Assembly (NCBI RefSeq): GCF_006345805.1 | Contig: NW_021833319.1 | Span: forward strand, 1 to 26,192 | Length of the DNA: 26,192 bases | Direction: 5' to 3' | From: Octopus sinensis | Taxonomy: Eukaryota | In this document: piece after piece, positions 4,347 to 25,875 of the stretch | Numbering within the stretch: position 1 is the stretch's first letter | Layout of the letters: every line of letters starts with the position of its first letter | Position numbers and translations under genes: made by a program | The notes under the pieces: generated by a model | Databases searched by the model: none | What the model saw: the letters and a program-made list of their open reading frames with translations, nothing else | What the model was told of the DNA's origin: nothing

Positions 4347-7300
4347 ATGACTGACCTCATAGGTATCCTGACCAGGGATTTAAACTCTCATAAAAATCAA
4401 CAAAAAGAAAGTCTGAGCACCTAATAACAGTAATCCAAATCTCCTAAATATAGTCGTGTGTAAACACAATAAAACTGCTTTCAGATATTAAACAAGATGA
4501 ATTTCTGATTAAAGCCATGCGAGAAAACTCAGTCCCCTTTCTTTCCCCCTTCTTCGAGGCAGTCAATTCGCGAATTCCCTCAGCCGTGAAAATCGGTCTG
4601 CAGTCGATCAGATACTGCACCACAAAGTCTGCCCTGGACAACGCAGTGACCAGACTTATTCTCAGGCAGGCGTGGACCACCTGGTCTCCCTCCTCTCCCT
4701 TCTTGCCAATAACGGAATCGAGGAACTCCGGGTCCTCCAGACGTGTTCTTCGCTGGTGGCAATGTACGAGCACATATCCTCGGATGTCCTCCGACGGTCA
4801 TTTCCCTCTGTTTCGGGGTTATTGGGTCACCAACACAAACCACGTGCATGGCCGGCCTGGCCGTGGTCAATCAGTTGGCCTCCTCTGTATTTGATCGTGC
4901 ACTGACATTGAACGACGACCCGTCCACTTCGCGGAGAGTGAGTGACTGTCCTCTCCCCCGGGACTCAACTCCTATGAGGGGGACACCTACATGTTCATTC
5001 AGGTCACTTTTGCCTATATTTCAGGACTTGTGTGCAGTGGCCGGAGGCGACAAATCCAAGTGGATTCAGAAAATGGGGGGCATGGCCCTTTCTATTGAAC
5101 TAATTATTTCAGTATTGAACAACAAGCTGTTTAGCACGGTTTGGGTGTCACATCATTCCAGAAAGAGGTCTTCCGAGACCTGGTTAGGACACAGGTCTGC
5201 TCGGTCGTCGTCCAACTCTTGTCCCACGGCCGTACATTCGAAAATCAATATCTGCACGTGTCTTTTTCGGCAAGACAACAATTGATGAAATTGGTATTCC
5301 TACTAGTCAGGACATTTGACTTTCTGGTTTGGACACGTTTTGATGTGGTAGGCACTGGAGAGTCATCTCATTGCCGGTCTCCTGTCTAAACTGGTCCTCA
5401 TGGGAGACCGGGACGTCTTCTTTTATTCTCTTGCCGCAGACACCCTGCAGGCTTTCTTGAGGACGCATTTGTTAGAAGGTTTGGTTGGCGAGAAAGTGGC
5501 AGGGCGGTGGAGTTGGAGGACAGTGAGAGGAGGTCCTGCTACTTTAAGGTCATCAAAGTGAGTCTGAGTACATATTCTGCTCTCTGCTGGAGTGAATCCA
5601 TTTTGTGGAGTCAAAATCACGGAATTGCGGAATTTTATGACCAGCTGGGATTCCGTGTCGGAAACGTGTTTTATCCTCTCATCAAACTGGTCTACACGGA
5701 CGGGTGTTCAGTGCACTGGTAGGTGACCCTCCTAATCGTCCAGTGTCAATATGGGGGAGGGGGAGGCACCCTCGGTTAGTCCTGCACACGTGCTGAATCT
5801 GATCTATGACCAGTTGGAGGACATGTTGGCAAACTGACCCTCTTTCTGGACACGTTGGGAGGTCGTCTGCTCATTTCTCTTGTGAAGGACCCCCCTTCGA
5901 GATTGTGTGGAATAAGATGTGTCTGATCCCCGGGCTATGCCGATATGTCAGGTTGGTGTGTTTGTCCATTTGCAGTGCTAAGGACGACCAGCTGCAAGTC
6001 CTGTCCCATATCGCCAGACTGGGCAAACTGAGTCACCACGAGGTAGAGGCACCCTTCATGTTAGGAGGACATGCAACTCCTTTTTGCTGCCTGGATTGGG
6101 GAGTTGTGTGGACTGTGTGCTGCCAAGGTCGATGTGTGGTGGAATATGGCCACCGACTGTCTTCTTCAACTCCTTTCCTTCTCTAACAAACGACTAAGGA
6201 CAGCCACTCTCGGTCTTGTCTCAGGACTTGTCATATTCGCTCTCGTCAAATCGTACAGTTCTTTTGATGGTGGCCATTCTATTGCATGTTGAAGTTACTC
6301 GGGTGGTCGCCTCCTTCCCCCACGACGAGGAGTGCAGACGAGTTCAACTGGATTGTATCAATTTGATATTATCAACATGTCCGACGGAGGGAGAAGTCTG
6401 GTCACTCTTATTGAACAGTCTGAGGGGAGTGTAATGGCCTGTTGTGACATGACAGTGATACCAAGAGGGCATTCAAGACTGTCCAGACAATATCCGAACG
6501 ACACTTGGAGTATATGTGTGTGGAAAATGTCCACATTCTCGCTGATTTGGTCGTCCAATTTGCCACGGGGAAGGTGGATTTGAACACGAGTCTGTCCTGC
6601 ATAGGATTACTGGTAGTGTAGTGGATTACTGGTAGTGGGGAATGTGCGACCAGATGTGTTCCAAGCACATGCATATGTTCTGTCACATATTCGCCAATCT
6701 GTCGGCCTGCTGCATGGATGAGAGATACTCCCTCCGTCGGTCTGCCGTCAACTCACTCTATTCGGCCATCACTGCTAACAACAAGTCCATCGAGGACTCC
6801 CAGTGGGTTACACTCCTCAAAGGTCTCTTCGACACACAGACCATGATTTGGGAGACTGTCCTCACTTCCATTACTCATTCGGAGTGGGTCGACACTTTTG
6901 TGCAATATTTTGACGGATTATCCCGCATATTCTCCCTCAGAATGCCTCTTCTCATCAAAGAGGGTATTTCCGTGCTCATTTCAGGTGTGTTTGACGGATT
7001 CTGGGACAAGTATCTCGACTTGGTGGTCAGGGGTTCACTTCACTCCTCTGAGACCTTGGCGTTGGCCGTTATTTTTTCTTTCTGTCATACTTTGGAGAGA
7101 TTCCCGAGCTCGGAGGAAATGGAGAGATCTTTGACCCTCAGTTGGAACAATTGGATATCCCTTGGCACGTACTTTGGCCTACTCCGATACACGGATCTAA
7201 AGGACAGTCCCAGTCTTACCTACAGTCAGGCACACTTGGCCACGTTTGCCCAAGCATTCGGCCTGATGCTACAAGTCATTCCTTTTTTAGAGTTGCCTTC

Positions 7301-8300
7301 TAATTTGCTTACGTGGCAGTTTGGATGACGGGAGAATCGGGTCATTTGTGAGGGTCAACTACGAGTTCTTGAGTGTCCCCGTCCTCGGCGAGTTTGCTTC
7401 CGTCGTTCAGTCAAAGTCCGTCAACTCACTTACTCAGCTGCAGAACGCTGTCGTCGAAAATTTAATGTTTTGTGTCAGGTTGTGCCAGTTCAGTTAATAG
7501 CAGAGGTTTGAGGTCCATTCCTCTTCTTTCCACGTGGAATTTGTTACACAATTACTCCAATTTATCACTCTGGGTCTCAATAACCCGGTTTTTGAGGACA
7601 CTCCACTCAAACTGGTGTCGGAGGGGGATTATGGCACGGTTAGACGACAGTGACTAATTCCAGGCGGATTTGGTGCATTTTGGACACGTTTGTTTATCCG
7701 TTAAAGTGGTCTCCATTCTCTCCGGACACTGCTCGGTTCTCCGTGGTGGGAAATTTGGGATAGACTGCTTCAAAAAGATAATCGAGGTTGATGTGATTGG
7801 TGAGTGGTAGACATTGGGGTACGTTGGATCGTGCAAATACGCCTGTTCCCCGAACTTGTGGAGAGCGGCGTTTCTGGCCTTGATTGAGGTGTTGGAATGG
7901 AATATGAGTGGTACTCCTCGTCCTTTCATCTTTGAGAGGAATATTTCTGTGAAATCGACATTGGGGACGTTTTTTCGAGGATTATCTTCAATTCGCGGTT
8001 GATTAGGTTGTTCTATTGCAGTGTCCCTTCTTCAATTTACCCAACCGAAGACCTCAGGATTGACGAGGATGTCGACTGCAGATTTGTTGCCTTCCTTCGA
8101 GTTCTTCTGAGCGAAAATTCCCACATGTTGGACGACTCGCTGATCTCTGTGATATTAGGTTGGCTGAAGAAGGGGTCCCTCCATCAGTCGGAAATTGACT
8201 GTATTGTCATATTAGTATCCCAGTGTGGACCATGCGAGACCTAGCGAGTTACTCCGCTCAAATTTGATATATTTTTCCACGTCTTTCTTGGTGGTCGCAC
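4347..8300 (+). CDS. MON2: MON2 (Sec7/BIG-related Golgi-endosome trafficking scaffold), multi-exon, C-terminus truncated
   Basis: Colinear MON2 motifs after splicing: PFFEAVNSRIPSAVKIGLQSI, NGIEELRVLQT, DTYMFIQ|DLCAV, SLSCIGLL|WGMCD, CMDERYSLRRSAVNSLYSAI, EWVDTFVQYFDGLSRIF, LTQLQNAV, CKYACSPNLWRAA, LKKGSLHQ. GT-AG introns of 20-28 nt include 4430-4453, 4646-4665, 5003-5024, 5139-5161, 5327-5351, 5479-5502, 5719-5743, 5862-5887, 6043-6064, 6431-6455, 6613-6635, 7292-7319 and 7639-7663. Several 1-nt homopolymer deletions must be corrected. Confidence 0.9.
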
Positions 8301-8302
8301 AC

Positions 8303-9117
8303 TTCTTCGCAATGGCTATCGAAAGGGAACAATGGTCTACGAAGCGAGGCATTGTACTGTCTTTTGCAAGATAGGAATTTGTTCTTTGCATACACGGGAT
8401 CACTATGCGTCCACTGCAAAAAAAGCAGGCAGACTGTTGACCATCTAGCCACGCGGTGTGTAGGATGCTAAACAGTGATTATTTCCGAAGACACAACGAA
8501 GTGGTAAAGTGTATTTATCACCACTTGTGTCGAATGTATAAAATTAAACGAAGTAGGAAATTGAAGGGACATTCGGTTGTGTCAATAATGTCGACCCAAA
8601 ATGTCGAAATCAGAGTTGACAATTCAACTGACAATTGCAGAGTTGACAATTGCAGAGTCATTATGACTGAAACGAAATTTCAATTCAATAAACCTGATAT
8701 TTTCGTTTATGACAAGAGGAAAAGAGAAATTCATTTAATCGAAGTGGGAGCTACCTCGCAAGACCGTTTAAAGCAATTTGAAGTGGAAAAATTTGACAAG
8801 TACGACCTGCTTGCAAACGAACTGTCGGTTCTCTATGAAGCAAAAGTGAAGATTATTTCAATTGTCTTGACATGGAATGGAGTTGTCTCAAGTTCTTTAA
8901 AAGTCATATGGACAAGTTATCCATTGAAGAAGGAACGAGGACATACATCCAGTCGGTTGTGCCGAAGAGGACTCTAGGGAGTATGCTTATCGAGCACAGA
9001 CATGGGATAAAGGTGGACAACGAGGAGTACGCCTCTGCCGCCAATCAACTTGCGGAGCTGGCATGTCGTGAGGACACTCAGCTAAACAATTACTTCGACA
9101 GAGAAATGAAAAAATGA
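8303..9117 (+). mobile_element. 3' part of an R4-like non-LTR retrotransposon (CCHC knuckle plus PD-(D/E)xK restriction-like endonuclease)
   Basis: SQWLSKGNNG..EALYCLLQDRNLFF..CVHCKKSRQTVDHLATRC..DYFRRHNEVV..KPDIFVYD..LIEVG..EKFDKYDLLANEL..IVLTWNGVV. One frameshift near 8890 and a short tandem duplication at 8611-8660. Confidence 0.85.
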
Positions 9118-9273: not shown

Positions 9274-10867
9274 ATGTCCAAAGTCGACTGCATCACTGAA
9301 AATATTAATTTAGATCTAAATGAGAAAGAAGGTCACAATATTCGCCAAAGAGTTGAGAAAGACGATTCCCCCACAGGGTTATCAGTCGATGAGATTTTGA
9401 CTCAGTCAAATACTCCATTCTGGAGAAGGGTAGTGCTTTTAAGATTATTTGTAGCTAAGATATGGTCTGCTGGCCTTGTTTGCATTGGTATTTGTCGCAT
9501 TGATTATATCCGTGGTTGTTTTGGTGACTACTAACCCTATCTGTACTGTTCCCTGGGATCAAAAATGGTACCAAAACTCCGTCATTTACCGAATTAATGT
9601 CAAATCTTTTTTTGACTCTGATAATGACGGAATTGGAGACTTAAAAGGTCAAACATTCAATTGACATTTCTAGGAATTATTCAAAAATTAGATTATCTTA
9701 GATCTCTTCATGTTGGTGCAATTTGGATCGAAGTTTTCAAAACAACCGATGTTTTTGAAAAAAATTTGGTCCCTACGTTGGAGCCGTATAAAGACCTGGC
9801 TATTTTAAGCAAAGCATTACGCCAATATGGTTTGAATTCACTATTCTAAATTGACAGACATTAATCTTCTAATTGACTTCAAAACAGAAAATATGGGCAA
9901 TGCTGATATGAAATCTGCATTGTTGAAAGTGGTGTATTACATCGACGGAATTGTTTTAGACGACCTTGATCCGAATTTATTTTCTTCCGTTTACCAAAAC
10001 TTGAAAAAAGTCCTTCCATCAGACAAGTAGTGATACATTAATAATTTTCAGGATAATTGCAATGCAGTTAAAAACTAACATGCAAGAGCACAAAGAGCTT
10101 GATTTAATTATTAATAAATTCGAATGCACAACCGTATCCCAATGCTCTCAAAACATCAAACAAGACGGGACTCGCTTTAGCACTAAACCTTACCGAGCTT
10201 ATACAGTCTAACCAATTATTTAAATCTGTTTAGATCAGTGATGAAACCAATTCACCCTCACGAAAAACTTAAGTTTACCAATGTTCTTCCAAGGGTGGTC
10301 AATCGTCATAAATTATGGAGACGAACTCCTCTCGGTACCAAGTAAGGATGTTTTTATTTAATAAAAGCTACTGTTATTCTCATGGATAGTCAGCCAATCA
10401 TGAATTGGAATGATGGAGCCGTAAGTAAAGGATTTAGCTCATCTCAAATAACTAATTTTGGATTTTCACGTAATTTCTTCATGCACGGCCTAAAAGTTGG
10501 AATTTGATAAAAATGTAAAGATTCAAACTGCTGCTGAAACTGAAATTAAAGGATTCTCAACCATTTCCTTTTATCTGGACATTTATAACCAAGATACATT
10601 CAAATGGGGAAGCTATAATGTGAATTCTGAAAACGATGTGATTATGTACACTGTGAAACGGGACGGATTTCAGTCATACTTTATTGCAGTTTCTTTAAAC
10701 AATCAATCAATATCAATGTTCTAACGTTGTTTTAACTGTAAAGGGATGTCGCGAAGATAACTCATGTTTCACATGGAATGATTATGAACATTGACGGGAC
10801 AAAAAATTCTGTGGAACTCAAAAATCTATTCATCGGAGCCGGGGATATATTATTAATAACTTACTAA
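9274..10867 (+). CDS. SLC3A: SLC3 family heavy chain of heteromeric amino-acid transporter (4F2hc/rBAT-like), ~461 aa
   Basis: GLSVDEI..TPFWRR|LRYGLL, single TM helix, NPIC (disulfide Cys), KWYQNSVIYRINVKSFFDSDNDGIGDLKG|IIQKLDYL, NYGDEL, PIMNW. Eight GT-AG introns: 9430-9454, 9648-9673, 9830-9857, 10027-10051, 10206-10233, 10342-10367, 10496-10520, 10718-10743. Needs one extra A in the A5 run at 10263-10267. Confidence 0.9.
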
Positions 10868-11115
10868 CTAGCTTTCCGAGGATTAATACCAAAATTTAAA
10901 AAATACTAATTCGTAATAACAAGAGAAACCATAAATTGCCTTAGATTTCTTTATTGTTCTTTTCATTGGCATGAGGTTATCGTTTAGAACTTTTGAAGAG
11001 CGCATATTAGTGACTTTCTAGAAGTCGATAATCCCACAAAAAACACAATTTGCTGTCCATAATTAAAGAATTAAGATTTAAATAGCACCAAAATAATTTA
11101 AACAAGTATGATTAG

Positions 11116-11395
11116 TTAAAGTAACTCAGTAAGAGGGGCCTCTTCGGTAAGGTACAAATCTTCTTCTTTTGCAAAGTCAGAAACAAGGATAGTTTGTAAA
11201 AAGATCGAAAAGCGTTCTGAGGTAATAGAAAATGAATTTACTTGAAAGTTCCTTATATTTTGAATTTTTTGAAATTCCTTTGACAGTAATAAAGTAAACT
11301 GGGGTTCCAGCCAGAATGATGAGGAAGGCTCCTCCACACCACTTTGGTTTGGAATAGAGTGTGATTGAAAGGAGATAGATTGAGACCATTATAAA
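11116..11395 (-). CDS. SLC7 LAT-type light chain, 3' fragment only (last two TM helices plus tail)
   Basis: FIMVSIYLLSITLYSKPKWCGGAFLIILAGTPVYF..ELS|KRFSIFLQTILV..* resembles LAT TM11-12 (P..GxxIILxGxPVYF) and the distal LQxL motif. A 25-nt GT-AG intron lies at 11217-11241. Similarity ends at the repeat junction at ~11395. Confidence 0.7.
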
Positions 11396-11450
11396 AGGTT
11401 CAATCCTTCCCGCAAGATCGGCCTGAGACGACGATGTCCCAGGGTCTGAG
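11394..11450. repeat. 57-bp dispersed repeat, identical to 21063-21119
   Basis: AAAGGTTCAATCCTTCCCGCAAGATCGGCCTGAGACGACGATGTCCCAGGGTCTGAG occurs twice. The second copy runs (minus strand) into a (TAAA)n-like tail at ~20959-20985, so it is probably a retroposon 3' end. Confidence 0.9.
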
Positions 11451-11667
11451 AAGCTAAGAGTCCTTTTTCGGTAGGCATTAAGTGCCTCCTGAGCGTTGCC
11501 ATATCCGGAGGAATTTCCAACTTCATATTTAAATAGCTCAATATCGACTAGTCCAATGTAATATTTCTGGGATTATAAATGAATTTATCGGTATTAAAAA
11601 TCAATAAATTTTAATTTTGAATTAAATAAAAGTTTTGATTTATTCATGTGAGTCACAGGTTTGTTGA

Positions 11668-12505
11668 ATGAGTGAATTATTCTCAGCTCAACAATACCAT
11701 AGAATGAACCCTATCAGGTACATTGAGTCAGGTTGCCCTAAACTTGACGAAATGCTCAAAGGTAATACGCCAAGTAAATATCGAAGGTAGAATTCGAGAA
11801 ATATTTGAAGTAAGCGGAGAAAGTGCCTCGGGGAAAACTCAGCTGGCTTTACAAATATGTTGTGCTGCCAATCTTGCAGAATCAGAAGGAAAATTTTCTA
11901 AAAATAAATTTCAGTTATTCTGTTCATAAACACCGGAGGCCCTTTTCCTAGTCAAAGACTCTTCCAAATCCTTTCTTTCTTAGAGAGTAAACAACAAATC
12001 CAAAACCGATCGGACAGAATATTCGTCGAGGACTGTCGAGATTATGTCATTTGGCATTTTCAACTTACTCATACAGGAATCGCTGATAAAGTGCCTCAAA
12101 ACTAAAATCGAAGGGCTTTTTCGACGTTTTTTAGTGCCTTTGATCATCATTGATTCCGTGGCTGGAATGTTTCGAGGAGATGAGAATGTTTATTCTGCAC
12201 CACAAAAAGCCCGCCAAATTTGTCAATTGGGCTTGGTTCTCCAGTCTCTACAGCGTCGAACAAAAGGAGTTATTTTGTGTCTGAATCAAGTTGCGGATTG
12301 TTTAGAGGAATTTATTCCTTGTAAAATCCCAGCATTGGGATTGACATGGGCCCATTTTATGACTGGTCGTGTGATGCTAACTCGTCACTGTACAAGTCCA
12401 TCCGTGGGGACTAGTAGACGCACTTTTACTGTAATTTCTGGGCCAAATTTCCCTCCTGCTTGTGCGGATTTTGTGATTGATGCATTTGGATTTCATTTTG
12501 TTTAA
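11668..12505 (+). CDS. XRCC3: XRCC3-like RAD51 paralog, 251 aa, 4 exons
   Basis: IESGCPKLDEMLKG, Walker A GESASGKT followed by QLALQ, FPSQRL, Walker B LIIIDSVAGMFR, CLNQVAD, PALGLTWA. Introns: 11762-11786 (GT-AG), 11889-11914 (GA-AG), 12046-12076 (GT-AG). The frame is continuous after splicing. Confidence 0.85.
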
Positions 12506-14279
12506 TTGCCGCTAGTTTTAGCTCAAATTTGACTTTTAATAATTTTTTTATTTAATTATCAGAAATACAGATCTGTTAGCGGACTTGGAAAAAAATGGAG
12601 AAAAAACTCGCGACATACTATCTATAGTTATATTACAAAGGGCAATATTTTGTCATTTTTTATATGTATATTTGTGACGTGGACATTAAGTTGAGTGATT
12701 TGAGTAATTTGGTTCACTTTTAAAAAAGTCCTTATTTATACTAAAATAATTAATGACCATTTGACAAGTTTCTTTTTTTATAAAAATCTTTTTTGCTTGT
12801 CGGCTCCTAAATCCACCGTTTCTTAAAGTACTTGTGTCGACTCTTAAAACCATCACTTGGGAATGAATGAGATTTTTAATAACACTTTAATTAATTTTAT
12901 TTTAAATTATTTAGCCGTGATTCTTAAATACGAAGAAAGTGTATTGGTTAATTTCTAGAATAACAAAATATTCAAAATTATTATTATTGCTTAATCTCTA
13001 AACTAGAGAGATATTAAATTATAGCTTTTATTTTTTAATTATTCATAAAAATAAAACTTTTGTTAGCTTTTAAAATCTATAAAATACATAATTTAAATAT
13101 AATCAACTTTATTAAGTGATTTTTCATCTAGGTTTCATAGTTGCTACAAATAAATTCTTATTGATTATTATTAAATATTCATATTTAATGATTTTCACTA
13201 AAATATTCATTTTAAAATTATTCTTCAGCATTTTCGTTGTTATTTCAGCAATATTAATGTAAATTCTCATGTTATATAGATTAGATTTTTTCGTGAATAT
13301 ATTAGAAATAAGAGATATTCTATTAGATTTATAAATCTTGCAGTCCCACTTAATTCAAGTAATTTAATGACAGAAAATAATTTTATTACATCGGGGAATT
13401 AAAAATGACATTCATTAAATTGATTTTACAAATAAATTTAAATATTTTGTTATTTTCTGATTGGAATGTGAGGATGATCTCTAATGGGTCATACATCAAA
13501 CGGGATTTTGCCCAAATTCTACAAGATACTTTTTAAGTATAAATAAAAGAAACCAGGGTCTATATATAGTTTTTTCGTGTTTAGGAAAACATTGGAGAAC
13601 ATACAAAAAAGAAAGGGATTCCCTTACTAACTAGAATAATCTGACATTAAAAGTCCAGCTGTATGATAACTTAAAATTTTGATTGTAGGTAGATGCCTAA
13701 AAGTATCCATTTTTCTTCTTTTGATTGTTTTAATAGAAAAAAATTGTGGAAAGATTTTGCTTTAAAAAATTAATTACTGAAACCTAATAGGCAAGTTTTT
13801 GATTAGGAATTCAGTTCTCTTTGAAAATGTATCGATTATATAAGACATGTTCTGATTAATGTTTTGCTTAGTTCGTTCACCAAAACTTTATTTGAAGAAA
13901 AATTAAAAAAAGTAAGTACAGTGGCTCCTTCTGAATTAGCCATTTTTGGTTCTTCGAAAGTTTGTGAAAAATTCCGGAAATTTGCCAATTCGAGAATAAA
14001 ATCAATATTTTTTTAATTCAGAGTTTCATTTGTGTTAATTACTCAACAACTCAAGTTTACGGCACAACTTCTAATTCATCAAATACAATTATGCTAAATT
14101 ATCAAATGAATTTTACAAACTTTTTTATTACAGCGTGTGAAGAGCTAAGAAATGACCTCTTTTTTATTTTCATTCTCTCCGTCAATCGCAATGGACATCA
14201 CTAATCTAATAAAAAGCATATGAAAAACTAAATGAAGGCAAGGGGCCAGGGAAAGCCGGCAGGGTCAAAGAATGAATAG

Positions 14280-14800
14280 ACAGCTCTTGGGAGGTGCTTA
14301 GTTGAATTGTTTCCCATGTGGAAGACGAAACACTGAGAATCGGACTATATCTACGCCTTGACTTACCGTTTACACCAGAACATCAATTTTGATGCAGCGT
14401 AGGGACAGGCGACTTTGGCTAAGACTCTCTTTTATTTCGTAACATATTTGGAACTCATTACACATGCAAATCTAAACCAAATCATTTATTGGTCTTTCAG
14501 GACTTTGGATTTTACTTTCAACTGTCAGGATCTTTGCCGAGGACAGTGAAAGAGTCGAAAAGGTTTACCACCTTGCACTTTTCTTTTCATCATGAAGCCA
14601 GTCGGTCTTTGCCAGAGTGACGGAAAGCGTCCTGGCGGATAACTACCTTTCTTTTTAGAGAAAGCAAGTCCCTTGTTTGAATGCCATTAGTGTTGCCTCA
14701 ATATTATCAAAGATGAGCAGCAACCTGGTTTCTATCAGTTTTCATGCTGAAGAGCAAAATATGTGTGCATTTCATACGCTTTCGAATTTGTCGCCTTCGA
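14280..14800 (+). mobile_element. Highly degenerate CRE-like RLE retrotransposon
   Basis: DETLRIGLYLRLDLP and KPVGLCQSDGKRPG..SKSLV..HAEEQN are colinear with the intact copy at 16164-16836. Confidence 0.6.
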
Positions 14801-14993
14801 AACTTCTGGAATCTGCAACTCAACTTCTTCCTGACACTAAAAAGCGGCATGTAACCAACCTAAGAGTTCTTGCCAATCCAGAAAACAACCGGACGAAATC
14901 AAGAAACGAAAGAACCGAGTTTGTTTTCTGATTGTGGTCTACTCTAATAAGACACCAGATGTCCCTTAAACAAAATAATGACACCTTTCACCA

Positions 14994-15296
14994 CTATTTA
15001 TTTAAGTGGTTAGACAATTTTTCAATAAATCGTACAGATACCTCCAACTTTGGGGTTAGTTTGGATTTTAAATTCAAGCCATACCCCAATTTAATGGAAT
15101 ATCTCCACGTTTTCTTCGAAAGTTCAACGTGTTTCCTTCCTTCACAGCTTCTGAACAGTCCTTGAAAGCCATAAATCAGGAAAGGCTCTATACAGGAAGA
15201 GTATACGTATAGGAACGCTTTCGGTTTCAACCAAAATTGTGTAAGACCTTTCAAAATCGCGCTAGCTTTGTTTTTTCTGTTAATTATATTAGCCAT
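14994..15296 (-). mobile_element. LINE ORF2 C-terminal fragment, same family as 17701-18456
   Basis: KNKASAILKGL..LKPKAFLYVYSSCIEPFLIYG..RYSIKLGYG aligns by eye with KRKATNALFCL..LEPDTFLYVFNTVILPGLLYG..RLALKLAY. Confidence 0.75.
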
Positions 15297-15399
15297 GAAT
15301 CCACAACTAATTTATCGGAAATAGACAAGTTAGTCTTTTCAGCTTTCCAAGATTTAAGCGATGATTCAATTCCAGTTTTGGGAACATTATTAAAAAATA

Positions 15400-16010
15400 T
15401 TGCGTTAAAAATTGCTGTAAGACTAAACTTGAGCTCGTCCCCCCGGTCGATCCCAGAGGGTTCAAGCATTTTCGAGCTTAGCCCGTGAATGTAGACATCC
15501 GAGAACCGATCTCCGGAACGAAGCTGATTGCCTTTCCTGCAATGGAACCGGAAGTCTCAACTGCGAAAGAAGGGAATTCTTAAATTACCGCAAGTAAAGA
15601 GTACTTCCGCATCTTCTTTCTTTTAGCTTTTGTGGCGATTGATTCAAAGGCGGAAGCGGGCATCAGTAGGTTCTTAGACGAGAATGATTCCACACACGTG
15701 GAGGCGCTTTTGAGTGACATTTCTAGGGTGATGATAAAAGTTAAGCCATCCCGCCGATCGATTCCAGTGGGTTCAATTGTAGAGGAAATTTAGAAAGGCA
15801 GGCTGATAAGGTTATTTATTGTAGCCTAGTGCGAAATACGAGAGAGCCTGCATCCACACGATAAGTCGTGAAAAAAGATATCATCACAACATGCAAAGTA
15901 AATAAGCCTGCAGAACAGACACAAAAATTGATATTATAAGAGGTAATTGGACCAAAAAATCCACGTTGGTCAGACGGATGAAGAAAATTAAGAAATTTAA
16001 TAACTGGAAG
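15400..16010 (-). mobile_element. Degenerate CRE-like RLE retrotransposon
   Basis: HDLSCGCRLSRISH, INNLIS, EPTGIDRRDG, TCVESFSSKNL, KAKRKKMRKYS, FAVETSGSI occur in order with frameshifts. An extra EPSGIDRGD scrap lies at ~15440-15468. Confidence 0.7.
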
Positions 16011-16163
16011 CATTTGATAATGCTTTAAAAATTTAGTTTTCTAAATAATTTATATTTCAGTATTCATAAGCTAAAGTAATATTATAAATAAAATTTAACA
16101 AATAAATAAATAATTATTTATTCCAAATTTTATCAATGCATCAATTTGAATCATTGAGTATAC

Positions 16164-16871
16164 CAGACCTGAAAGTGGGGCGTGGCTTAATGCCCTCCCT
16201 TGCTACCAATCTGGAACCCTTCTCGATAATGACTGTGTGAGGATTGGCGTAGCAATACGCTTGGGACTTAATGTCTGTTCGGGGGGCCAATGCCGATGCG
16301 GTAGTAAAGTCGGTACCAAAGGACTACATCCCCTGTCATGCAGAAGGAGTGCTGGCCGTGCTCCCAGACACTCCGCTATCAACGAGACTATTTCGGCTGC
16401 GTTACAAGCAGCTGGATTCCCGACAGAACTGGAACCCGTTGGGCTTGACCGTGGAGACGGTAAACGCCCAGATGGAGTCACCATTTTCCCGTGGAGTAAT
16501 GGGAAATGCCTCGCGTGGGACTCCACGTGCACAGACACTTTTTCAAAGACCAACATAGTTGACTCCGCGATCAGTCCAGGCTCAGCCGCTGAGAAGGCTG
16601 AGGCACATAAAGTTCAGAAATATTCCAACCTGTTGGACAACTTCATCTTCTCCCCAATATCCGTAGAAACCTCCGGGGTCATGAGCCAAAAATCGTTCGA
16701 ACTCGTCGGGAAAATCGGGGATCTGATCTCGAGAAGACGGAGAGAGCCTCGGGAGAAGCAATGGTTGTTCCAAAGAATATCCATTGCGATCCTGAGGGGC
16801 AACGTCTTCTCGATCATCAGTAGCTTTAGATTGTAATAATTATTTTCGGGTGTTTGTTTCTATAAAAAAAA
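16164..16871 (+). mobile_element. 5'-truncated CRE-like non-LTR retrotransposon with an uninterrupted RLE domain
   Basis: Open frame SGAWLNALP..RIGVAIRLG..CRCG..HPLSC..RHSAIN..EPVGLDRGDGKRPDG..WDSTC..AEAHKVQKY..VETSG..QRISIAILRGN, stop at 16836, A-tail at 16864-16871. Candidate TSD ATTGAGTATAC at 16153-16163 and 16877-16887. Confidence 0.85.
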
Positions 16872-17089
16872 GTCCTATTGAGTATACTATTATGTCACAT
16901 ACCCTGTTCGTTACCATGCCCCGCTCGTTACCATTGCTCTAAATTTTTAAAATTTCAATTTAAAATATTTAAATGATTGAAATATATTTACTTATTAATT
17001 TAAAAATTAATAATATTATGGATTTTTATTTTTTCAATGCTTAACCATTATCATTAAAAAACAATAAATTAAGCATGCTGTTTTATCTC

Positions 17090-17277
17090 ATGGTTATGGT
17101 TAGGGTATAGGTTAGGGTTAGGGTATAGGTTAGGGTTAGGGTGAAGGTTAGGGTTTGGGTGAAGGTTAGGGTTTGGGTGAAGGTTAGGGTTTGGGTGAAG
17201 GTTAGGGTTTGGGTGAAGGTTAGGGTTTGGGTGAAGGTTAGGGTGAAGGTTAGGGAATTGGTTGGGTTTAGGGTTTG
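17090..17277 (+). repeat. Interstitial telomere-like array (TTAGGG and variants) with an 18-bp higher-order unit
   Basis: GTGAAG-GTTAGG-GTTTGG occurs five times at 17141-17230, flanked by GTTAGG, GTATAG and GTTATG hexamers. Confidence 0.9.
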
Positions 17278-17700
17278 AAAAAATTTAAAGTAGAATTTTC
17301 GAATGGAGATACAAAGATTGTTCACATGAAAAGAATCAAAAAAGGACAAATTTAATTTTTCGTTTTAAACTTCAGATCTATATATGATTTTAAACTAAAA
17401 AACTGGATAAAGTTTGAGTTTTTTATAAGAGATCTACAGATGATTTTAAACCTTTATCTTTTTACATTTCAAAAAATGTTTTAAATAAAACTAAAAACTG
17501 GTTAGAGTTAATTATAAAACTATCAAATTATGTGCCTTTAAAGCGTTTCACACAATTCACATTTTTAAAATATGTTTTAATGTGCTTATCAGTCAAAATG
17601 GTTTGTTGTATAAAAATATTATTTTAATTTATTTGTTTTAAAGCATCTTTTAGTATATCATTAAATTGTACTCTAATTAACCTAATATATAGGTTGAATT

Positions 17701-18616
17701 TTGTGGCGCTCTGTGATAAGCTTTCTGAACTATGACTCGGATGAACTGAAACTTAAAAGAGGCGTCCCTCAAGGATCAGTCCTCAGTCCTCTATTATTCA
17801 ACATTGTGATGAGCAATCTGCCGTCTCCTGTCAACACACGGACGGAAATTTTGATATACGCCGATGATGTTGTAATCCTTGACATTTCATCGAAACCTGC
17901 CTTATCCGAACAAAGGATTATATCATATATGAATACAGTGGAGCAATGGTGCGATGAAAATATGTTCATTATTGCGCGTGAGAAGTCCGCATTACTGAGA
18001 ATCACAGAAAGCAGAAATTTAATAAATTTACCGTGCCTGATCAAGAACATACCTCGACAAAACTCAATTAAATATCTTGGCTTGTTCATCGATGAAAAGG
18101 GAAACTATCTCGAAAACGCAAAATTAAGTAAAAGGAAAGCAACTAATGCTCTGTTCTGCCTGAGGAAGTTAAATTTGGAGCCTGATACTTTCCTCTACGT
18201 TTTCAATACGGTGATCCTACCGGGACTACTATACGGAAAAGAGGGATGGTACTTCTCTAAAAAGAAGGACACCATCTTAACTAAATTTGAAAAGTCTCGC
18301 AGGCTCGCTTTGAAGCTTGCTTACCACCAAAAAGTTGAAGATCCAATCCCCCTGTGGCTTGAAAGTAAATCCTCCATGGTCGGTGAAACTGTCGAAAAAG
18401 CTATAAGTGGTTATAAATCCAACTCAATTGTCACTGGGACGTACCTGCAGAGGTAGAAAAAAAAAAAAAAAAAAAAAAAAAATTTACTTGAGGGGGTCTC
18501 TTTTTTTTTCTGGGAAGAAGTCGATAGGGTAGTCCTATTGTTTCATTATACAAACTCCCCCCTAACCTTTAACCCTTCTCTGTTTCCAATAAAACTTCCT
18601 ATTCCTATTCCTATTC
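17701..18616 (+). mobile_element. 5'-truncated LINE: RT domain to C-terminus, 3'UTR and (CCTATT)n tail
   Basis: RGVPQGSVLSPLLFNI, YADD and IKYLG in an open 251-aa frame, stop at 18456. Followed by a long A run, AATAAA at 18588 and CCTATT x3. Confidence 0.9.
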
Positions 18617-18735
18617 GTTGTGATTGATTATTAATTTTTCTAAAAAATTGAAAAATCATTAATCAATTATTTCTCAGAAATAATTCGGAGGTAACGAGTG
18701 GGGCATAGTAATCCCTGAGGCATGTGACATATTAC

Positions 18736-20221
18736 TAGGGCAACCGCAAATATGACCTAAAAAATTTCAAATATGACCGATAAAATATGACTTATATGAC
18801 CTTAAACGAAAAAATATATGCCCTTAATATGACCTAATAAATTTGTATTTTTATGTACTAATAAAGTTTTAATAAGGCTTATATTTAGAACTAATCACTC
18901 AAATTTATTGTAATATAACGAAAAGTAATATTTAATGTTATCATTTTTAAAGTTTCTATCCTTCTCCAACATCTTTTGCAGCATAGAAAAACTTCTTTCA
19001 ATGGAAATAGTTGTTGCTGGACATTTCCATAATATCGAACAAACTTCTGGTGAACAATTATCGATCTTAGCAGTATAAATTTCTTTTAATCGATTTTTAT
19101 CTATTCTTTTACGGAAATATTTAGATATTCCACATGGATCATCCCCAAAATTTATCACATTAATAAATTTAACGGCATCCTCAATGGTAAAAAAGTTTCT
19201 TGGCATTGATGTAATCCATCTAATATGTCACTATAACATGATTTTATCAATGCAAGGTTTCTTTCCAAATTAATTGAATCTAAAGCAGTTTTTACTTTAT
19301 CTAAGATTTTCCCTTTTTTGTTAAATTCAGGACCAGAAACCTTTTTTGTTAAACCAATTTAAAACAAAAATAATTTGGAATTGCAATCAATTTCGATTGA
19401 CGCAAGTCGTGTGTTTTACTTCTTTTTTTATGCATTTCCGTCTGTCTGTGTTGTTCCACGTTAAAACTTTTTGAAAAGTTTACCGGAACACAACAGAACT
19501 TGCAATTAAGTCCCCCATTAGTACTTCTCGTAAATTCGTGCGGATATTTATTTAATATTTTAGAGAGTTTGAATTCATTAGATTTTTTTGATTTAGGCAT
19601 CTATTAATATACCTTTTTTTATATAAAAACCTTTATCTCACTCAACAAAAAACCGATTATATCTCACATTATAAAAAATAATTCAAATATTATTATTCAA
19701 ATATTTATATTAAAAAAAATAAATATTAATCTAATTCATTAAAATATACGAGGAGAGTGACTACCTGATCGAACAGTTGGAAAAGACAAGACGTTTCGCT
19801 ATGAAATTGGCTTACGGAGTACAACTTGACGGAAGGCTAAAAGACTCACAAGAATCCTCTGTGCCCACGATCCGGATGGTCTTGGAGAATTGTCGTCAAA
19901 CATGACTAGTATTGGGGATACGCATGGAAAGAGACACTTCGGTGCCTTGTTTTTATCTCCCCGCCGATGTTTTTCTTCCTTGTTTTTCTTTTTCTTTTCG
20001 CTCAATAAACACTATTCTATTCTATTCTATTCATTAAAATATACAAAAATTTGAATATGACTTTATTTTTATAATATGACTTTATTATTGAATATGACTT
20101 ATATGACCTATTAATAAGTGTTTAAATAGTTAAAAAATATAATTAAAATATTTAATTAATATAAACAAACACAAAATGACCTTATTTTGTGATAAGCATT
20201 ATATGACTTTTGGTTGCCCTA
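18736..20221 (-). mobile_element. Internally deleted hAT transposon (CGGBP1/hAT19-like)
   Basis: TIRs TAGGGCAACC/GGTTGCCCTA, subterminal ATATGAC repeats and 8-bp TSD ACTATTAC. N-terminal Zn finger (CKFC..QH..H) at 19349-19600 and C-terminal ATTISIERSFS dimerisation region at 18895-19206. Most of the catalytic core is missing. Confidence 0.9.
19750..20028 (+). mobile_element. Short 5'-truncated LINE 3' end inserted in the hAT
   Basis: EQLEKTRRFAMKLAYG..* (same family as 17701), AATAAA and (CTATT)4 tail. Perfect 16-bp TSD ATTCATTAAAATATAC at 19734-19749 and 20029-20044. Confidence 0.85.
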
Positions 20222-20235
20222 ACTATTACTAACGG

Positions 20236-20430
20236 ATTATTATTATTATCGGCACTTTCGCGATGCCATGAATCATGAAAAAGCTTGTGCAGCACAGGAA
20301 ACAATAAGAGTAATTAGTTTATTCCATTTCCGTAGTGCATCGAGATCGTCCCCGTTCTTTAATTCTTTACCAGCCCTCTTTAGGTCTCTATCCAGCGTAC
20401 CGGGGAAAGTATTTCTTGGATTGCTGATTA
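20236..20430 (-). mobile_element. RTE-like LINE 3' end with (TAA)n tail
   Basis: PRNTFPGTLDRDLKRAG..DLDALRKW resembles RTE-clade C-termini. The tail reads ATTATTATTATT on the + strand at 20237-20249. Confidence 0.5.
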
Positions 20431-21280
20431 CTTTGTAGGATTGCAAAGGAAATCTATTGGCGACAATCGACCTTAACTCCGTGTAGGAGTTGACCAATTC
20501 CTGATAATTTACACACATTTCGAATCTCTCTGTCAGTCTAAGTTGTATCCGATGCGTCCGACAGACGAATATTCGGCTCATTTATCAATATTTGACTTTT
20601 TCTCGTATTTGGCTTTTGTCTATGGATAAAACAATAGAGATTTCGAAGTAGCCTGATTATTTTTTGAATTAGCCTTTCAATGCTTTTGACATTATACGCT
20701 AGAAAAAGAATTGAGGCGCTGGCAAGCTTTCTAAATCAGCTAAATTAATTCTAATCAAAATTTAGAGTTTTATTCATTGGACAAATCACATTTCAGAAAA
20801 AAATTCACTATCTCCTTTGTTACCACAACCACTAAAATGATACAATTATGAAGAGTGAATTTTATTTTAAACTATAAGAAAATGCTTCAACAGCTTTTCA
20901 AGGTAGCGGCACCTGTCCAAATGGTTTTGAATAATGTTCACATGGGCCACGCGATACCTATTTATTATTTATTTATTTATTATTTAAAGACCAAACACGG
21001 GCAAAGCCAGTTAATTATAGTTATTCCCGTGATCGCCGATCCAAACGAGGGAGATCCTTCTGAAAGGTTCAATCCTTCCCGCAAGATCGGCCTGAGACGA
21101 CGATGTCCCAGGGTCTGAGCAGTCCGTTACATTAACGTTCAACTAAGATTAACTTAAATTAATTTAACTTTATTAAAGCCACAAAGAATAAAATTAAAGT
21201 AACTATTTTTTAGTCTAGTCATTAATTACAGTCGATATTTCTCCTTTTACATCCTTCTTACTTACTCCTTTTTCCTAACG

Positions 21281-21660
21281 TGTCAACTCTGATTTCTACA
21301 TTTTGGGTCGATGTTATCGACAGAACCAAATGTCCTTTCAGTTTCCTGTTTTGTTTAATTCCATACTTCGACATAAGTGAAGATGGACACACTTAACAAC
21401 TTCATTATGTCTTTGAGAAATCAGTTTTTAGAATCCTACCACATCGCGTGGCTATATGGTCAACAGTCTGCTTGCTTTTTTATCATGGACGCAGAGTGAT
21501 CATTTGTATGCAAAGAACAAATTCCTATCTTGCAAAAGACAGTACAATGCTTTGCCCCGTGGACCATTGTTCCATTTTTAGATTCATTGCAAATAAGTAG
21601 ATACGTCGATATTTGACTCCTCAAATTTAAACATTATCGAGTGTATTGATTTACAGCTGA
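21281..21660 (-). mobile_element. R4-like fragment, inverted paralog of 8310-8620
   Basis: Shares long identical stretches with the 8.3-kb copy (e.g. GCATTGTACTGTCTTTTGCAAGATAGGAATTTGTTCTTTGCATACA). Contains stops and frameshifts. Confidence 0.85.
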
Positions 21661-22865: not shown

Positions 22866-23170
22866 ATGCAAGAAACTGCAAAAGAAGATGAGATCTGCAA
22901 AAAATGCAACACGATGAACAAAAAAAAGAGGATGATCCATTGCACGGCCTGCTCGTGTGGCTTCCACATGTCCTGTGCCGGAATGACTAAAAGAGCCCTG
23001 GCGCTCATTTCTAATTGGCATTGTCGGGCATGTCTCCAACCAGATAATGCGACAAACTCTCCTATACGCTACCCTTCCAAACATGCCCCACTAGACCATC
23101 AGGGAATACTTGAATTGATATCAAGCCTGACACATACACGAAGACTCCTGATCAGGATTCCCAAAGCAAA
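22866..23170 (+). mobile_element. PHD-finger N-terminus, probably the 5' end of a CRE-like retrotransposon ORF
   Basis: C-x2-C..C-x2-C..FH-x2-C..WHCRAC is a canonical PHD with no introns. It is followed by LLIRIPKA, recalled as a pre-RT motif of metazoan CRE-like elements. Confidence 0.55.
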
Positions 23171-23995
23171 TGTTGTATTTATCGCAACTTTTAGTCATAA
23201 GAACATTACTAAATTCTCTTCCATGATCGGTATGAAGTAGTCCGACGTAATAAAAACGTTCTGAAATAAAAGCAATATTTCATTTGCCGATTTTGTGTTC
23301 TAAGCAGTGTCCATTCTCCGGCGTGTCAATACTCTGGACGCCCACAAACTATTTTTTAAATAAAATTATTTCGAACATGTTAGACTTGACATGGGCAAGT
23401 ACACTTATTTTTGTTAATGAAAACCTCTAATTATTGTCTACGCAAACCTTTCCACACAGCCGTTCCAAGAAACAGTTTATTGATGATAGTCTCTTGTGGT
23501 GACTATTTCACTGATGTACTCAAACAGCTTTACCAGAAACGGATCGGTATAAGGAGATGTGATTTGTAGGGGGGAAAAAAGGTAATGTATTAAAATAGTA
23601 CATATTCAGTAAAAGTTTTTCTGAAATTAAGTTATATAATCAATGATTGAACTTTAACTTATATATTTTCTATAAATATTATTTTTTTAATAATTAAAAA
23701 GTATAAATATTGAATCACTATTTCCATCGATTATTATTTTCATCAGCTATTTTTGACAGTTTATTATTATTTGTTACTAGCTCGGCAGCTCGCTTCGCTC
23801 ACCGCGACCTAGCTCCTGCGGAGGGCCTGTTTCATCAAACAACTATAAGTTTATGTAGATGTATAAAACTACCTGGTTTAATGTAATGAATAATAAAAAA
23901 GTTTAGGAAAAGAGGCATACCGAAAATAAATTCTATCTTTACGAAAAACTCAAGTAAATAGTTAATATTTTTACGCAAATTCTTCTGATTGCGCT

Positions 23996-24410: not shown

Positions 24411-25211
24411 GAAGGTTTTAATGGACCTCATCATGAATGTCGAGGACATTCGCGTTGTTCATTTTAATCAAAATGCAGAAAATAATTTTTTGATTTTTTG
24501 GGGGGAAGGTTTTAAGGACTTCATCATGTAAGTCGAGGACATTGTAGTTGTTCATTTTAACCAAAATGCAGAAAATTTTTTTTTAATTTTTTTTGGGAGG
24601 GAAGGTTTTAAGGACTTCATCATGTAAGTCGAGGACATTGTAGTTGTTCATTTTAACCAAAATGCAGAAAATTTTTTTTTAATTTTTTTTGGGGGGAAGG
24701 TTTTAAGGACTTCATCATGTAAGTCGAGGACATTGTAGTTGTTCATTTTAACCAAAATGCAGAAAATTTTTTTTTAATTTTTTTTGGGGGGAAGGTTTTA
24801 AGGACTTCATCATGTAAGTCGAGGACATTGTAGTTGTTCATTTTAACCAAAATGCAGAAAATTTTTTTTTAATTTTTTTTGGGGGGAAGGTTTTAAGGAC
24901 TTCATCATGTAAGTCGAGGACATTGTAGTTGTTCATTTTAACCAAAATGCAGAAAATTTTTTTTTAATTTTTTTTGGGGGGAAGGTTTTAAGGACTTCAT
25001 CATGTAAGTCGAGGACATTGTAGTTGTTCATTTTAACCAAAATGCAGAAAATTTTTTTTTAATTTTTTTTGGGGGGGGGGAAGGTTTTAAGGACTTCATC
25101 ATGTAAGTCGAGGACATTGTAGTTGTTCATTTTAACCAAAATGCAGAAAATTTTTTTTTTATTTTTTTGGGGGGAAGGTTTTAAGGACCTCATCATGTAA
25201 GTCGAGGACAT
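24411..25211. repeat. ~95-bp tandem satellite, 8 full units plus a partial unit
   Basis: GAAGGTTTTAA recurs at 24411, 24505, 24601, 24696, 24791, 24886, 24981, 25080 and 25174. Confidence 0.95.
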
Positions 25212-25280
25212 CGTATTGCCAATTTGAAGTTGGTGTGCACACACAGACAGACAGACACACAGACAGACAGACACACACCA

Positions 25281-25875
25281 TACCATTTTATTATTAAGAT
25301 TTTTTGATTTTTTTGGGTTTTATTTTCTTTTTTTATGTTTTAAATTTTTTTTTATTTTATGTTTTAAATTTTTTTTTCTTTTTTTTATTTTTTACTTTTT
25401 TTGTATTTTTTGATTTTTTTTGTTTTTTATTTTCTTATTTTTTGCTTTTTTGTGTTTTTATTTTCTTTTTTTATTTTTAAAATTTTTTTTCTTTTTTTTT
25501 GTGTTTTATTTTTCCTTTTTTTATTTTTCGATTTTTTGTTTTTTATTTTCTTTTTTTGTCTTTTGCGGTGTTTTATTTTATTTTTTTATTTTTTGAATTT
25601 TTTTTTGTTTTTATTTTTTTATTTTTTGTTTTTTTTATTTTTTGTTTTTTATTGTGTTTTTATTTTTTTATTCTTTTTTTTGTGTTTTATTTACTTTTTT
25701 TGATTTTTTTGTTTTATTTTCTTTTTTTATTTTTTAGTTTTTTAATTTTTTGATTTTTATGTGTTTTTTTTTTCGATTTTTATTGTGTTTTTATTTCATT
25801 TTTTTATTTTTTAAAAGTTTTTTTATTTTTTTATTTTTTAATTTTTTTTTATTTTTAAATTTTTTTTTATTTTTA
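25281..25875 (+). repeat. T-rich low-complexity tract
   Basis: About 600 nt of short T runs punctuated by single A/G/C bases. Confidence 0.9.

What the first reader, a model, noticed from the sequence alone, without database searches (positions are those of the whole stretch)
9274..11395. Heavy (SLC3) and light (SLC7) chains of the heteromeric amino-acid transporter are tail-to-tail neighbours
Seen: the stop codons are ~250 bp apart on opposite strands. Established: SLC3 and LAT-type SLC7 proteins form obligate disulfide-linked dimers, are unrelated in sequence, and are unlinked in mammals. The SLC3 here keeps the Cys (NPIC). Inference: a functional two-gene nutrient-uptake cluster in a gutless parasite. 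I am not aware of such linkage being described.
Basis: partly seen in the sequence, partly recalled or inferred. Interest (0 to 1): 0.7.

Follow-up and report, generated by a model that had tools for sequence, protein, structure and literature searches.

The report
Transporter gene beside broken partner stub
A gene for the helper subunit of an amino-acid transporter sits tail-to-tail with only the last sixth of its partner's gene, so this copy is not a working two-gene cluster, though it hints that the two partners were, or elsewhere still are, neighbours in this parasite's genome.

Summary
The geometry is right; the functional reading is not supported as assembled. SLC3 (9274-10867, +) is a 4F2hc-like heavy chain whose Cys83 maps onto the 4F2hc disulfide cysteine. 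248 bp past its stop lies the stop of a LAT-type SLC7, but only about 84 of ~500 residues are there: half of TM11, TM12 and the tail. At 11393/11394 the gene breaks mid-exon into a 57-bp sequence repeated exactly at 21063-21119; an XRCC3-like gene starts 310 bp away on the other strand, where 1.3 kb of coding sequence is needed. No other LAT piece was found in the window. The stub lacks TM1-10, hence the transport path and the partner cysteine. SLC3 itself needs a 1-nt frameshift. Tiny introns and a 98% match to a protein filed under an octopus point to a dicyemid. Best reading: a true neighbour pair whose light chain was cut by a rearrangement (0.42) or by an assembly mis-join (0.35). Linkage in relatives could not be tested.

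The parts
9274..10867 (+). SLC3 heavy-chain gene, 4F2hc-like: 9 exons, 8 GT-AG introns of 22-28 nt (9433-9454, 9648-9673, 9830-9857, 10027-10051, 10206-10233, 10342-10367, 10496-10520, 10718-10743), about 462 aa, one TM helix (about residues 55-78), GH13-like ectodomain without domain B
   Evidence: Pfam SLC3A2_N and Alpha-amylase; PDB rBAT/4F2hc; model and hydropathy; GH13 profile E 8e-26 and alignment to 8 bacterial/archaeal GH13 enzymes. Exons 4-9 are modelled from splice sites and frame, with no family hit of their own
9542..9544 (+). Cys83 codon (NPIC), the expected inter-subunit disulfide cysteine
   Evidence: Maps to 4F2hc residue 109/210/211 in the 529/630/631-aa chains by the ranges (alignment itself not printed); PMC8537225 names Cys211
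10263..10267 (+). A5 run near an apparent 1-nt deletion in SLC3 exon 6 (sequence error or real lesion)
   Evidence: As-assembled model stops at codon 290; the NYGDEL frame beyond it ranks 1 of 52,314 six-frame positions for the GH13 YxGEE profile (a longer profile ranks it only 13th). An open alternative model skips this motif and scores the same overall
10868..11115 (.). 248-bp AT-rich spacer between the two stop codons (convergent 3' ends), no repeat or junction seen
   Evidence: GC 0.29; no self-match in the window; poly(A)-like hexamers on both strands but 58% of shuffles have them too
11116..11216 (-). SLC7 last exon: cytosolic tail and stop
   Evidence: In frame after the 25-nt intron, 84-aa spliced peptide with one stop; no family hit alone
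11217..11241 (-). 25-nt phase-1 GT-AG intron of the SLC7 stub
11242..11393 (-). Remnant of the penultimate SLC7 exon: second half of TM11 and TM12
   Evidence: TIGR00911 437-475/505; LAT1 439-476/515, xCT-consensus 431-473/509; starts about 10 residues into TM11 of a bacterial LAT-like profile
11394..11450 (.). 57-bp GC-rich sequence at the break, no splice acceptor at the junction; origin unknown
   Evidence: 57/57 identical to 21063-21119; no Rfam or tRNA hit; not structured
11451..11572 (-). Non-LAT sequence that keeps the frame open upstream of the stub; no in-frame ATG before 11389
   Evidence: No hit in Pfam, NCBIfam and only E>=0.8 noise in PDB; no longer spliced model from upstream ATGs
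11704..12505 (+). XRCC3-like RAD51 paralogue, divergent from the stub; occupies the place where the rest of SLC7 would have to lie
   Evidence: Pfam Rad51; 150/153 identical to P0003; structural neighbours XRCC3; about 239-aa model
21063..21119 (.). Second, same-orientation copy of the 57-bp sequence, 9.67 kb away
   Evidence: joining the stub to the DNA beyond this copy does not restore LAT sequence

Best explanation
In a dicyemid, an SLC3 heavy-chain gene and a LAT-type SLC7 gene were genuine convergent neighbours, as tightly packed as other genes of this compact genome. A recent rearrangement or partial duplication in this transposon-rich region cut the SLC7 gene inside its penultimate exon and joined it to unrelated repeated DNA followed by XRCC3, leaving a promoter-less 3' stub (half TM11, TM12, tail). 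The stub cannot transport or bond to SLC3; the heavy chain, if its frameshift is a sequence error, works in the ordinary way with a light chain encoded elsewhere. Shown: the families, the geometry, the truncation, the junction repeat, absence of the rest from the window. Inferred: that the pair was once intact, that the break is in real DNA, that a partner exists elsewhere.
For: LAT match limited to 437-475/505; break mid-exon with no AG at the junction and an exact 57-bp repeat; 310 bp available against 1,308 needed; 0 further TIGR00911 hits in 131+7, 150, 102 and 69 other ORFs and none above noise in 1,330 ORFs with a bacterial LAT-like profile; spacer between the stops is seamless; window holds no N; another orphan gene piece (35 aa of lysyl-tRNA synthetase against a LINE end) lies in the same block; dicyemid genomes are about 49% repeats (PMC6736024) and reported to rearrange (PMC6543705 passages).
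Against: The stub shows no decay (open frame, both splice sites), and the window carries several small lesions in apparently whole genes (SLC3, Mon2 start, XRCC3 intron-2 donor), which suggests an error-prone assembly in which a mis-join is equally thinkable. No reads or second assembly could be examined. Short divergent exons can escape the profile scans (only 3 of 9 SLC3 exons hit; 1 of 2 shortened LAT controls was missed).
Confidence: 0.42

Rival explanations
1. Assembly mis-join: the animal has an intact SLC3 -><- LAT pair; the contig was joined wrongly at 11393/11394 (chimeric read, or a block with 57-bp terminal redundancy dropped between two other pieces). The first reader's arrangement would then be real, with both subunits of one transporter encoded tail-to-tail.
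For: Undecayed stub; exact terminal repeats around a 9.7-kb block with unrelated DNA outside both ends; single-base lesions in SLC3 and Mon2 and a GA donor in XRCC3; dicyemid assemblies are described as difficult, heterozygous and repeat-rich.
Against: No gap or N at the junction; no database protein of 91-2000 aa carrying the stub's sequence was found among 21 candidates (weak, because tiny introns defeat standard annotation); the junction is not at a long repeat inside the LAT gene itself, so a simple repeat-collapse does not explain it.
Confidence: 0.35
2. Stray fragment: the LAT 3' end (with its intron and 3' flank) was copied from a distant locus and landed behind SLC3 by accident; the two genes were never neighbours.
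For: The window is a mosaic with at least one other orphan gene piece; many partner pairs exist in a genome, so some chance adjacency is expected over a whole scan (inference).
Against: No second junction is visible in the 248-bp spacer; landing next to its own partner has about 0.04-0.24% prior per SLC3 gene (assumed gene numbers); GC3 of stub (0.34) matches SLC3 (0.35-0.37) and not Mon2 (0.61), though XRCC3 is similar too.
Confidence: 0.18
3. The stub is used: a split light chain (TM1-10 elsewhere, TM11-12 plus tail here), a trans-spliced last part, or an 82-aa micro-protein from the ATG at 11389 that binds the heavy chain's N-terminal helix.
For: Open frame, in-frame ATG, intact intron; the light-chain C-terminus contacts the heavy-chain N-terminal helix (PMC8537225).
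Against: The cut removes about 10 residues of TM11 (peak hydropathy 1.4 against 2.4 in the profile consensus) instead of falling between helices; no acceptor AG at the junction; the upstream DNA is a duplicated, non-LAT sequence.
Confidence: 0.05

Closest known systems
[quoted passage not shown]
   Same: Type II membrane protein, SLC3A2_N domain, neck cysteine at the 4F2hc position, GH13-like ectodomain
   Different: Strongly diverged; lacks domain B like 4F2hc while the start of the barrel scores slightly better with rBAT; apparent frameshift in this copy; introns of 22-28 nt
LAT-type SLC7 light subunits (LAT1, LAT2, xCT, Asc-1; TIGR00911)
   Same: TM11-TM12 sequence and position at the C-terminus
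   Different: Only about 84 of ~500 residues; TM1-TM10 and the EL2 cysteine are absent; subtype cannot be assigned
Vertebrate slc3a1/slc7a9 (system b0,+) gene pair
   Same: Same two families encoding one transporter
   Different: On different chromosomes in human (2 and 19), mouse and zebrafish (13 and 7) (PMC8478756 passages); here 248 bp apart
Truncated gene stubs at rearrangement or assembly breakpoints
   Same: Mid-exon cut, junction into repeated DNA, no start or promoter of its own
   Different: Nothing special except that the surviving neighbour is the obligate partner

Membership tests
SLC3 heavy chain | Cytosolic N-terminus and single TM helix (SLC3A2_N) | tested here: met
   Pfam PF16028 on exons 1-2 (27 bits at cut-off 27 for exon 2 alone); one hydrophobic stretch
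SLC3 heavy chain | Neck cysteine for the disulfide to the light chain | tested here: met
   Cys83 maps to 4F2hc Cys109/211 by equal-length ranges (PMC8537225); it does not line up with rBAT Cys114 in the same table
SLC3 heavy chain | GH13-like ectodomain with eroded catalytic site | tested here: met
   GH13 profile E 8e-26; alignment shows domain B missing, beta4 Asp kept, beta5 Glu not kept, beta7 NHD motif altered (middle of the alignment is uncertain)
SLC3 heavy chain | Uninterrupted reading frame | tested here: inconclusive
   Motif-consistent model needs a 1-nt frameshift; an open but motif-skipping model exists; error versus real lesion needs reads
LAT-type SLC7 light chain | Sequence similarity to LATs rather than other APC carriers | tested here: met
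   TIGR00911 the only NCBIfam hit; 11 of 12 PDB sequences hit are LATs
LAT-type SLC7 light chain | Twelve TM helices with the TM1-TM10 transport core | tested here: not met
   Only model 437-475/505 present; nothing else in the window
LAT-type SLC7 light chain | Cysteine in the loop between TM3 and TM4 | tested here: not met
   That region is absent (location from PMC8537225)
Functional SLC3-SLC7 gene cluster | Both genes complete at the locus | tested here: not met
Functional SLC3-SLC7 gene cluster | Adjacency conserved in relatives | not testable with these tools
Functional SLC3-SLC7 gene cluster | Co-expression or overlapping 3' UTRs | not testable with these tools
   No RNA data; poly(A)-like hexamers are at chance level (58% of shuffles)

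The most novel reading that the evidence does not exclude
[quoted passage not shown] Probability given is for an intact pair existing in the animal; that the linkage is selected rather than a by-product of genome compaction is lower, about 0.12.
Probability: 0.37. Interest if true: 0.5.

Novelty: new member of a known kind. Interest (0 to 1): 0.27.

Why it matters
As it stands it is an ordinary heavy-chain gene beside a gene stub, and a warning that adjacency claims need a completeness check. If an intact pair is recovered, it would be a rare case of non-homologous subunits of one animal membrane complex encoded side by side, would identify a cognate heavy/light pair in a gutless parasite without biochemistry, and would give a simple locus for asking whether compaction or selection brings partners together. 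If the junction is real and cell-type specific, it would be a defined breakpoint for the little-studied dicyemid genome rearrangements.

Tried and rejected
1) Finding a full-length relative of the stub: word search of longer proteins gave 0 of 21 candidates; the profile-library search returned two unrelated repeat proteins; plasmid search only noise; the Atlas could not read the sequence. So no eukaryotic LAT sequence was on hand and no tree was built. 2) Rest of SLC7 beyond XRCC3 (nested gene), inverted, or upstream: no hit. 3) Excision between the two 57-bp copies restoring SLC7: it does not. 4) The 57-bp repeat as an RNA gene or SINE: no Rfam hit at E<=1, no tRNA, fold z between -0.1 and -1.0. 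5) The repeat as part of a circularly permuted lysyl-tRNA synthetase gene (motif likeness seen by eye): not supported; with 84 prokaryotic LysRS the segments rank 16-53 of about 52,000 and only 20560-20455 is LysRS; eukaryotic LysRS was not available. 6) The repeat plus 21062-20983 as a decayed LAT N-terminus/TM1 (which would mean an internal deletion): no hit in PDB, Pfam, NCBIfam, ranks 8-244 and off register with a six-sequence bacterial profile. 7) Myxozoan origin: myxobolids also have such introns (PMC13644364) but the 98% match to an octopus-filed protein favours a dicyemid. 8) Overlapping 3' UTRs from poly(A) signals: chance level. 9) A short TM-plus-Cys query to print the 4F2hc alignment found only noise. 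10) Cluster look-up of P0003/P0005 could not be made. No structure or complex prediction was run: the known interface (TM3-TM4 loop, TM4) is absent from the stub. Conservation of the last-intron position with vertebrate LAT genes is a recalled lead and was not tested.

Full report
Observation. The + gene starts at ATG 9274 and is an SLC3 heavy chain: Pfam SLC3A2_N on exons 1 and 2 and Alpha-amylase on exon 3, rBAT and 4F2hc among the PDB matches of exon 2. A nine-exon model with eight GT-AG introns of 22-28 nt gives about 462 aa with one membrane helix followed by Cys83. By the equal-length ranges, Cys83 falls on residue 109 of the 529-aa and residue 211 of the 631-aa 4F2hc chains; PMC8537225 names Cys211 as the disulfide cysteine. 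Aligned to eight prokaryotic GH13 enzymes, the ectodomain lacks domain B and keeps at most part of the catalytic triad, as described for 4F2hc. One caveat: the motif-consistent model stops at codon 290 unless one base is missing near the A5 run at 10263-10267; the frame beyond it carries the best YxGEE-like site of 52,314 positions in the window (rank 13 with a longer profile), while an open model that skips this motif scores the same overall. Exons 4-9 have no family hit on their own.

The light chain. The - strand peptide is LAT-type SLC7: TIGR00911 is its only NCBIfam hit (E 6.5e-6) and 11 of the 12 PDB sequences hit are LAT1, LAT2, Asc-1 or xCT forms (best E 5e-6); Pfam gives nothing for it. 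But it covers model positions 437-475 of 505 only. With a 25-nt intron (11217-11241) it splices to 84 aa: the second half of TM11, TM12 and the tail. Upstream the frame stays open for 59 codons that are not LAT. The change happens at 11393/11394, mid-exon, with no acceptor AG; from there 57 bases are identical to 21063-21119 in the same orientation. An XRCC3-like gene begins at 11704 on the + strand, leaving 310 bp where 1,308 bp of coding sequence plus introns would be needed.

Is the rest elsewhere in the window? TIGR00911 hit 0 of 131 minus-strand ORFs of 28 aa or more between 11392 and 24458 (two telomere-like ORFs left out) and 0 of 7 plus-strand ORFs, against 2 of 3 controls; 0 of 150 plus-strand ORFs of 36 aa or more (7 of 157 already assigned ORFs and the SLC3 region left out); 0 of 102 other minus-strand ORFs (88 upstream, 14 of 30 beyond 24400); 0 of 69 minus-strand ORFs of 20-27 aa, with 1 of 2 shortened controls found. 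A profile of six bacterial LAT-like permeases run without filters on all 1,330 ORFs of 12 aa or more ranked the stub first (E 0.058) and nothing else better than E 0.4. Single short exons can be missed, but a whole TM1-TM10 core is unlikely to be. Excising the 9.7-kb block between the two repeats does not restore the gene. The light-chain cysteine lies between TM3 and TM4 and the membrane contact is TM4 (PMC8537225); both are absent, so the stub cannot make the canonical heterodimer, and it lacks the transport core (established knowledge of the APC fold).

What the junction is. The 57-bp sequence is not a known RNA and is not structured. Two ideas seen by eye failed: part of a permuted lysyl-tRNA synthetase gene and a decayed LAT N-terminus. 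Its origin is unknown. The surroundings are a mosaic of whole genes (Mon2, SLC3, XRCC3), transposon pieces and at least one orphan gene fragment.

Organism and data quality. The 27 modelled introns have a median of 25 nt; among animals such introns are reported only in myxobolid myxozoans and Dicyema (PMC13644364, parts 1-2 of 3 read). The XRCC3 last exon is 150/153 identical to a protein filed under Octopus sinensis whose N-terminus reads through the same 31-nt intron; that octopus is the host of Dicyema japonicum (PMC6736024, parts 1-3 of 5 read). A dicyemid origin is therefore likely (inference). That genome is 49% repeats, 1.24% heterozygous, with 5,012 genes, and dicyemid somatic genomes are reported to rearrange and form circles (PMC6543705, passages). 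The window has no N but shows small lesions in three apparently whole genes, so sequence errors, and a mis-join, are possible.

Mechanism. Most likely the two genes were real convergent neighbours and the light-chain gene was cut recently, leaving a stub (0.42). Close behind is an assembly mis-join with an intact pair in the animal (0.35). A stray fragment landing by chance (0.18) and a used split or micro-protein (0.05) are less likely. The seamless spacer and a per-gene chance of 0.04-0.24% (assumed 1-6 LAT genes) favour genuine adjacency, but in a 5,000-gene, heavily shuffled genome some partner pairs will be neighbours by chance, so adjacency alone does not show selection. Poly(A)-like hexamers that would make the 3' UTRs overlap are at chance level (58% of shuffles).

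Comparison with what is known. Both families are well known. Vertebrate slc3a1 and slc7a9 are on different chromosomes (PMC8478756, passages); that other mammalian SLC3/SLC7 pairs are unlinked is recalled, not checked. Eight searches of the open-access library (listings and abstract starts only, except the six papers opened) showed no report of SLC3-SLC7 linkage; PMC6854800 has no occurrence of the transporter terms in its main text. Subscription papers and supplementary gene lists of the dicyemid papers were not seen and may bear on the SLC7 gene count.

Verdict. Observation partly confirmed; functional cluster not supported at this locus as assembled. Interest 0.27; 0.5 if an intact pair is recovered (probability about 0.37).

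Noticed in passing
window 11984-12502 and P0003: A protein filed as Octopus sinensis XRCC3-like is 98% identical to the window's gene and begins inside a 31-nt intron; it looks like parasite DNA annotated as host.
   Followed up: partly
window 11889-11914: XRCC3 intron 2 needs a GA-AG boundary (26 nt) instead of GT-AG: sequence error, lesion or non-canonical splice site.
   Followed up: no
window 4347-8244 (+): Apparently full-length Mon2 gene (about 1,170 aa, 15 introns of 20-35 nt, one frameshift near the start) with much higher GC3 (0.61) than SLC3 or XRCC3 (0.31-0.37).
   Followed up: partly
window 20560-20455 (-): Isolated 35-aa piece of lysyl-tRNA synthetase abutting the 3' end of a LINE-like ORF (20452-20276).
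   Followed up: yes
window 11394-21119: A 9.7-kb block bounded by exact 57-bp direct repeats, with GC-rich sequence on both inner sides, as a linearised circle or terminally redundant contig would look; unexplained.
   Followed up: partly
window 17092-17244: Interstitial telomere-like array, 18-bp unit containing TTAGGG on the + strand, 8.5 copies.
   Followed up: no
window 13470-16030 (+): Gene-like region with several ORFs of 60-90 aa and no family hit; no reliable model could be built.
   Followed up: partly
window 8301-9117 and 21281-21598: Decayed retrotransposon-like sequence directly upstream of SLC3 with an 83% identical inverted copy; the non-LTR label is by eye, no Pfam hit.
   Followed up: no
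window 17698-18482, 18895-19600, 16150-16836, 22866-23240: Reverse-transcriptase ORF ending in a 26-nt poly(A), hAT transposase piece, an unassigned 228-aa ORF, and a PHD-finger ORF.
   Followed up: no
window 24411-25215 and 25320-25875: 95-bp tandem array (8.4 copies, differing mostly in homopolymer length) followed by a T-rich low-complexity tract.
   Followed up: no
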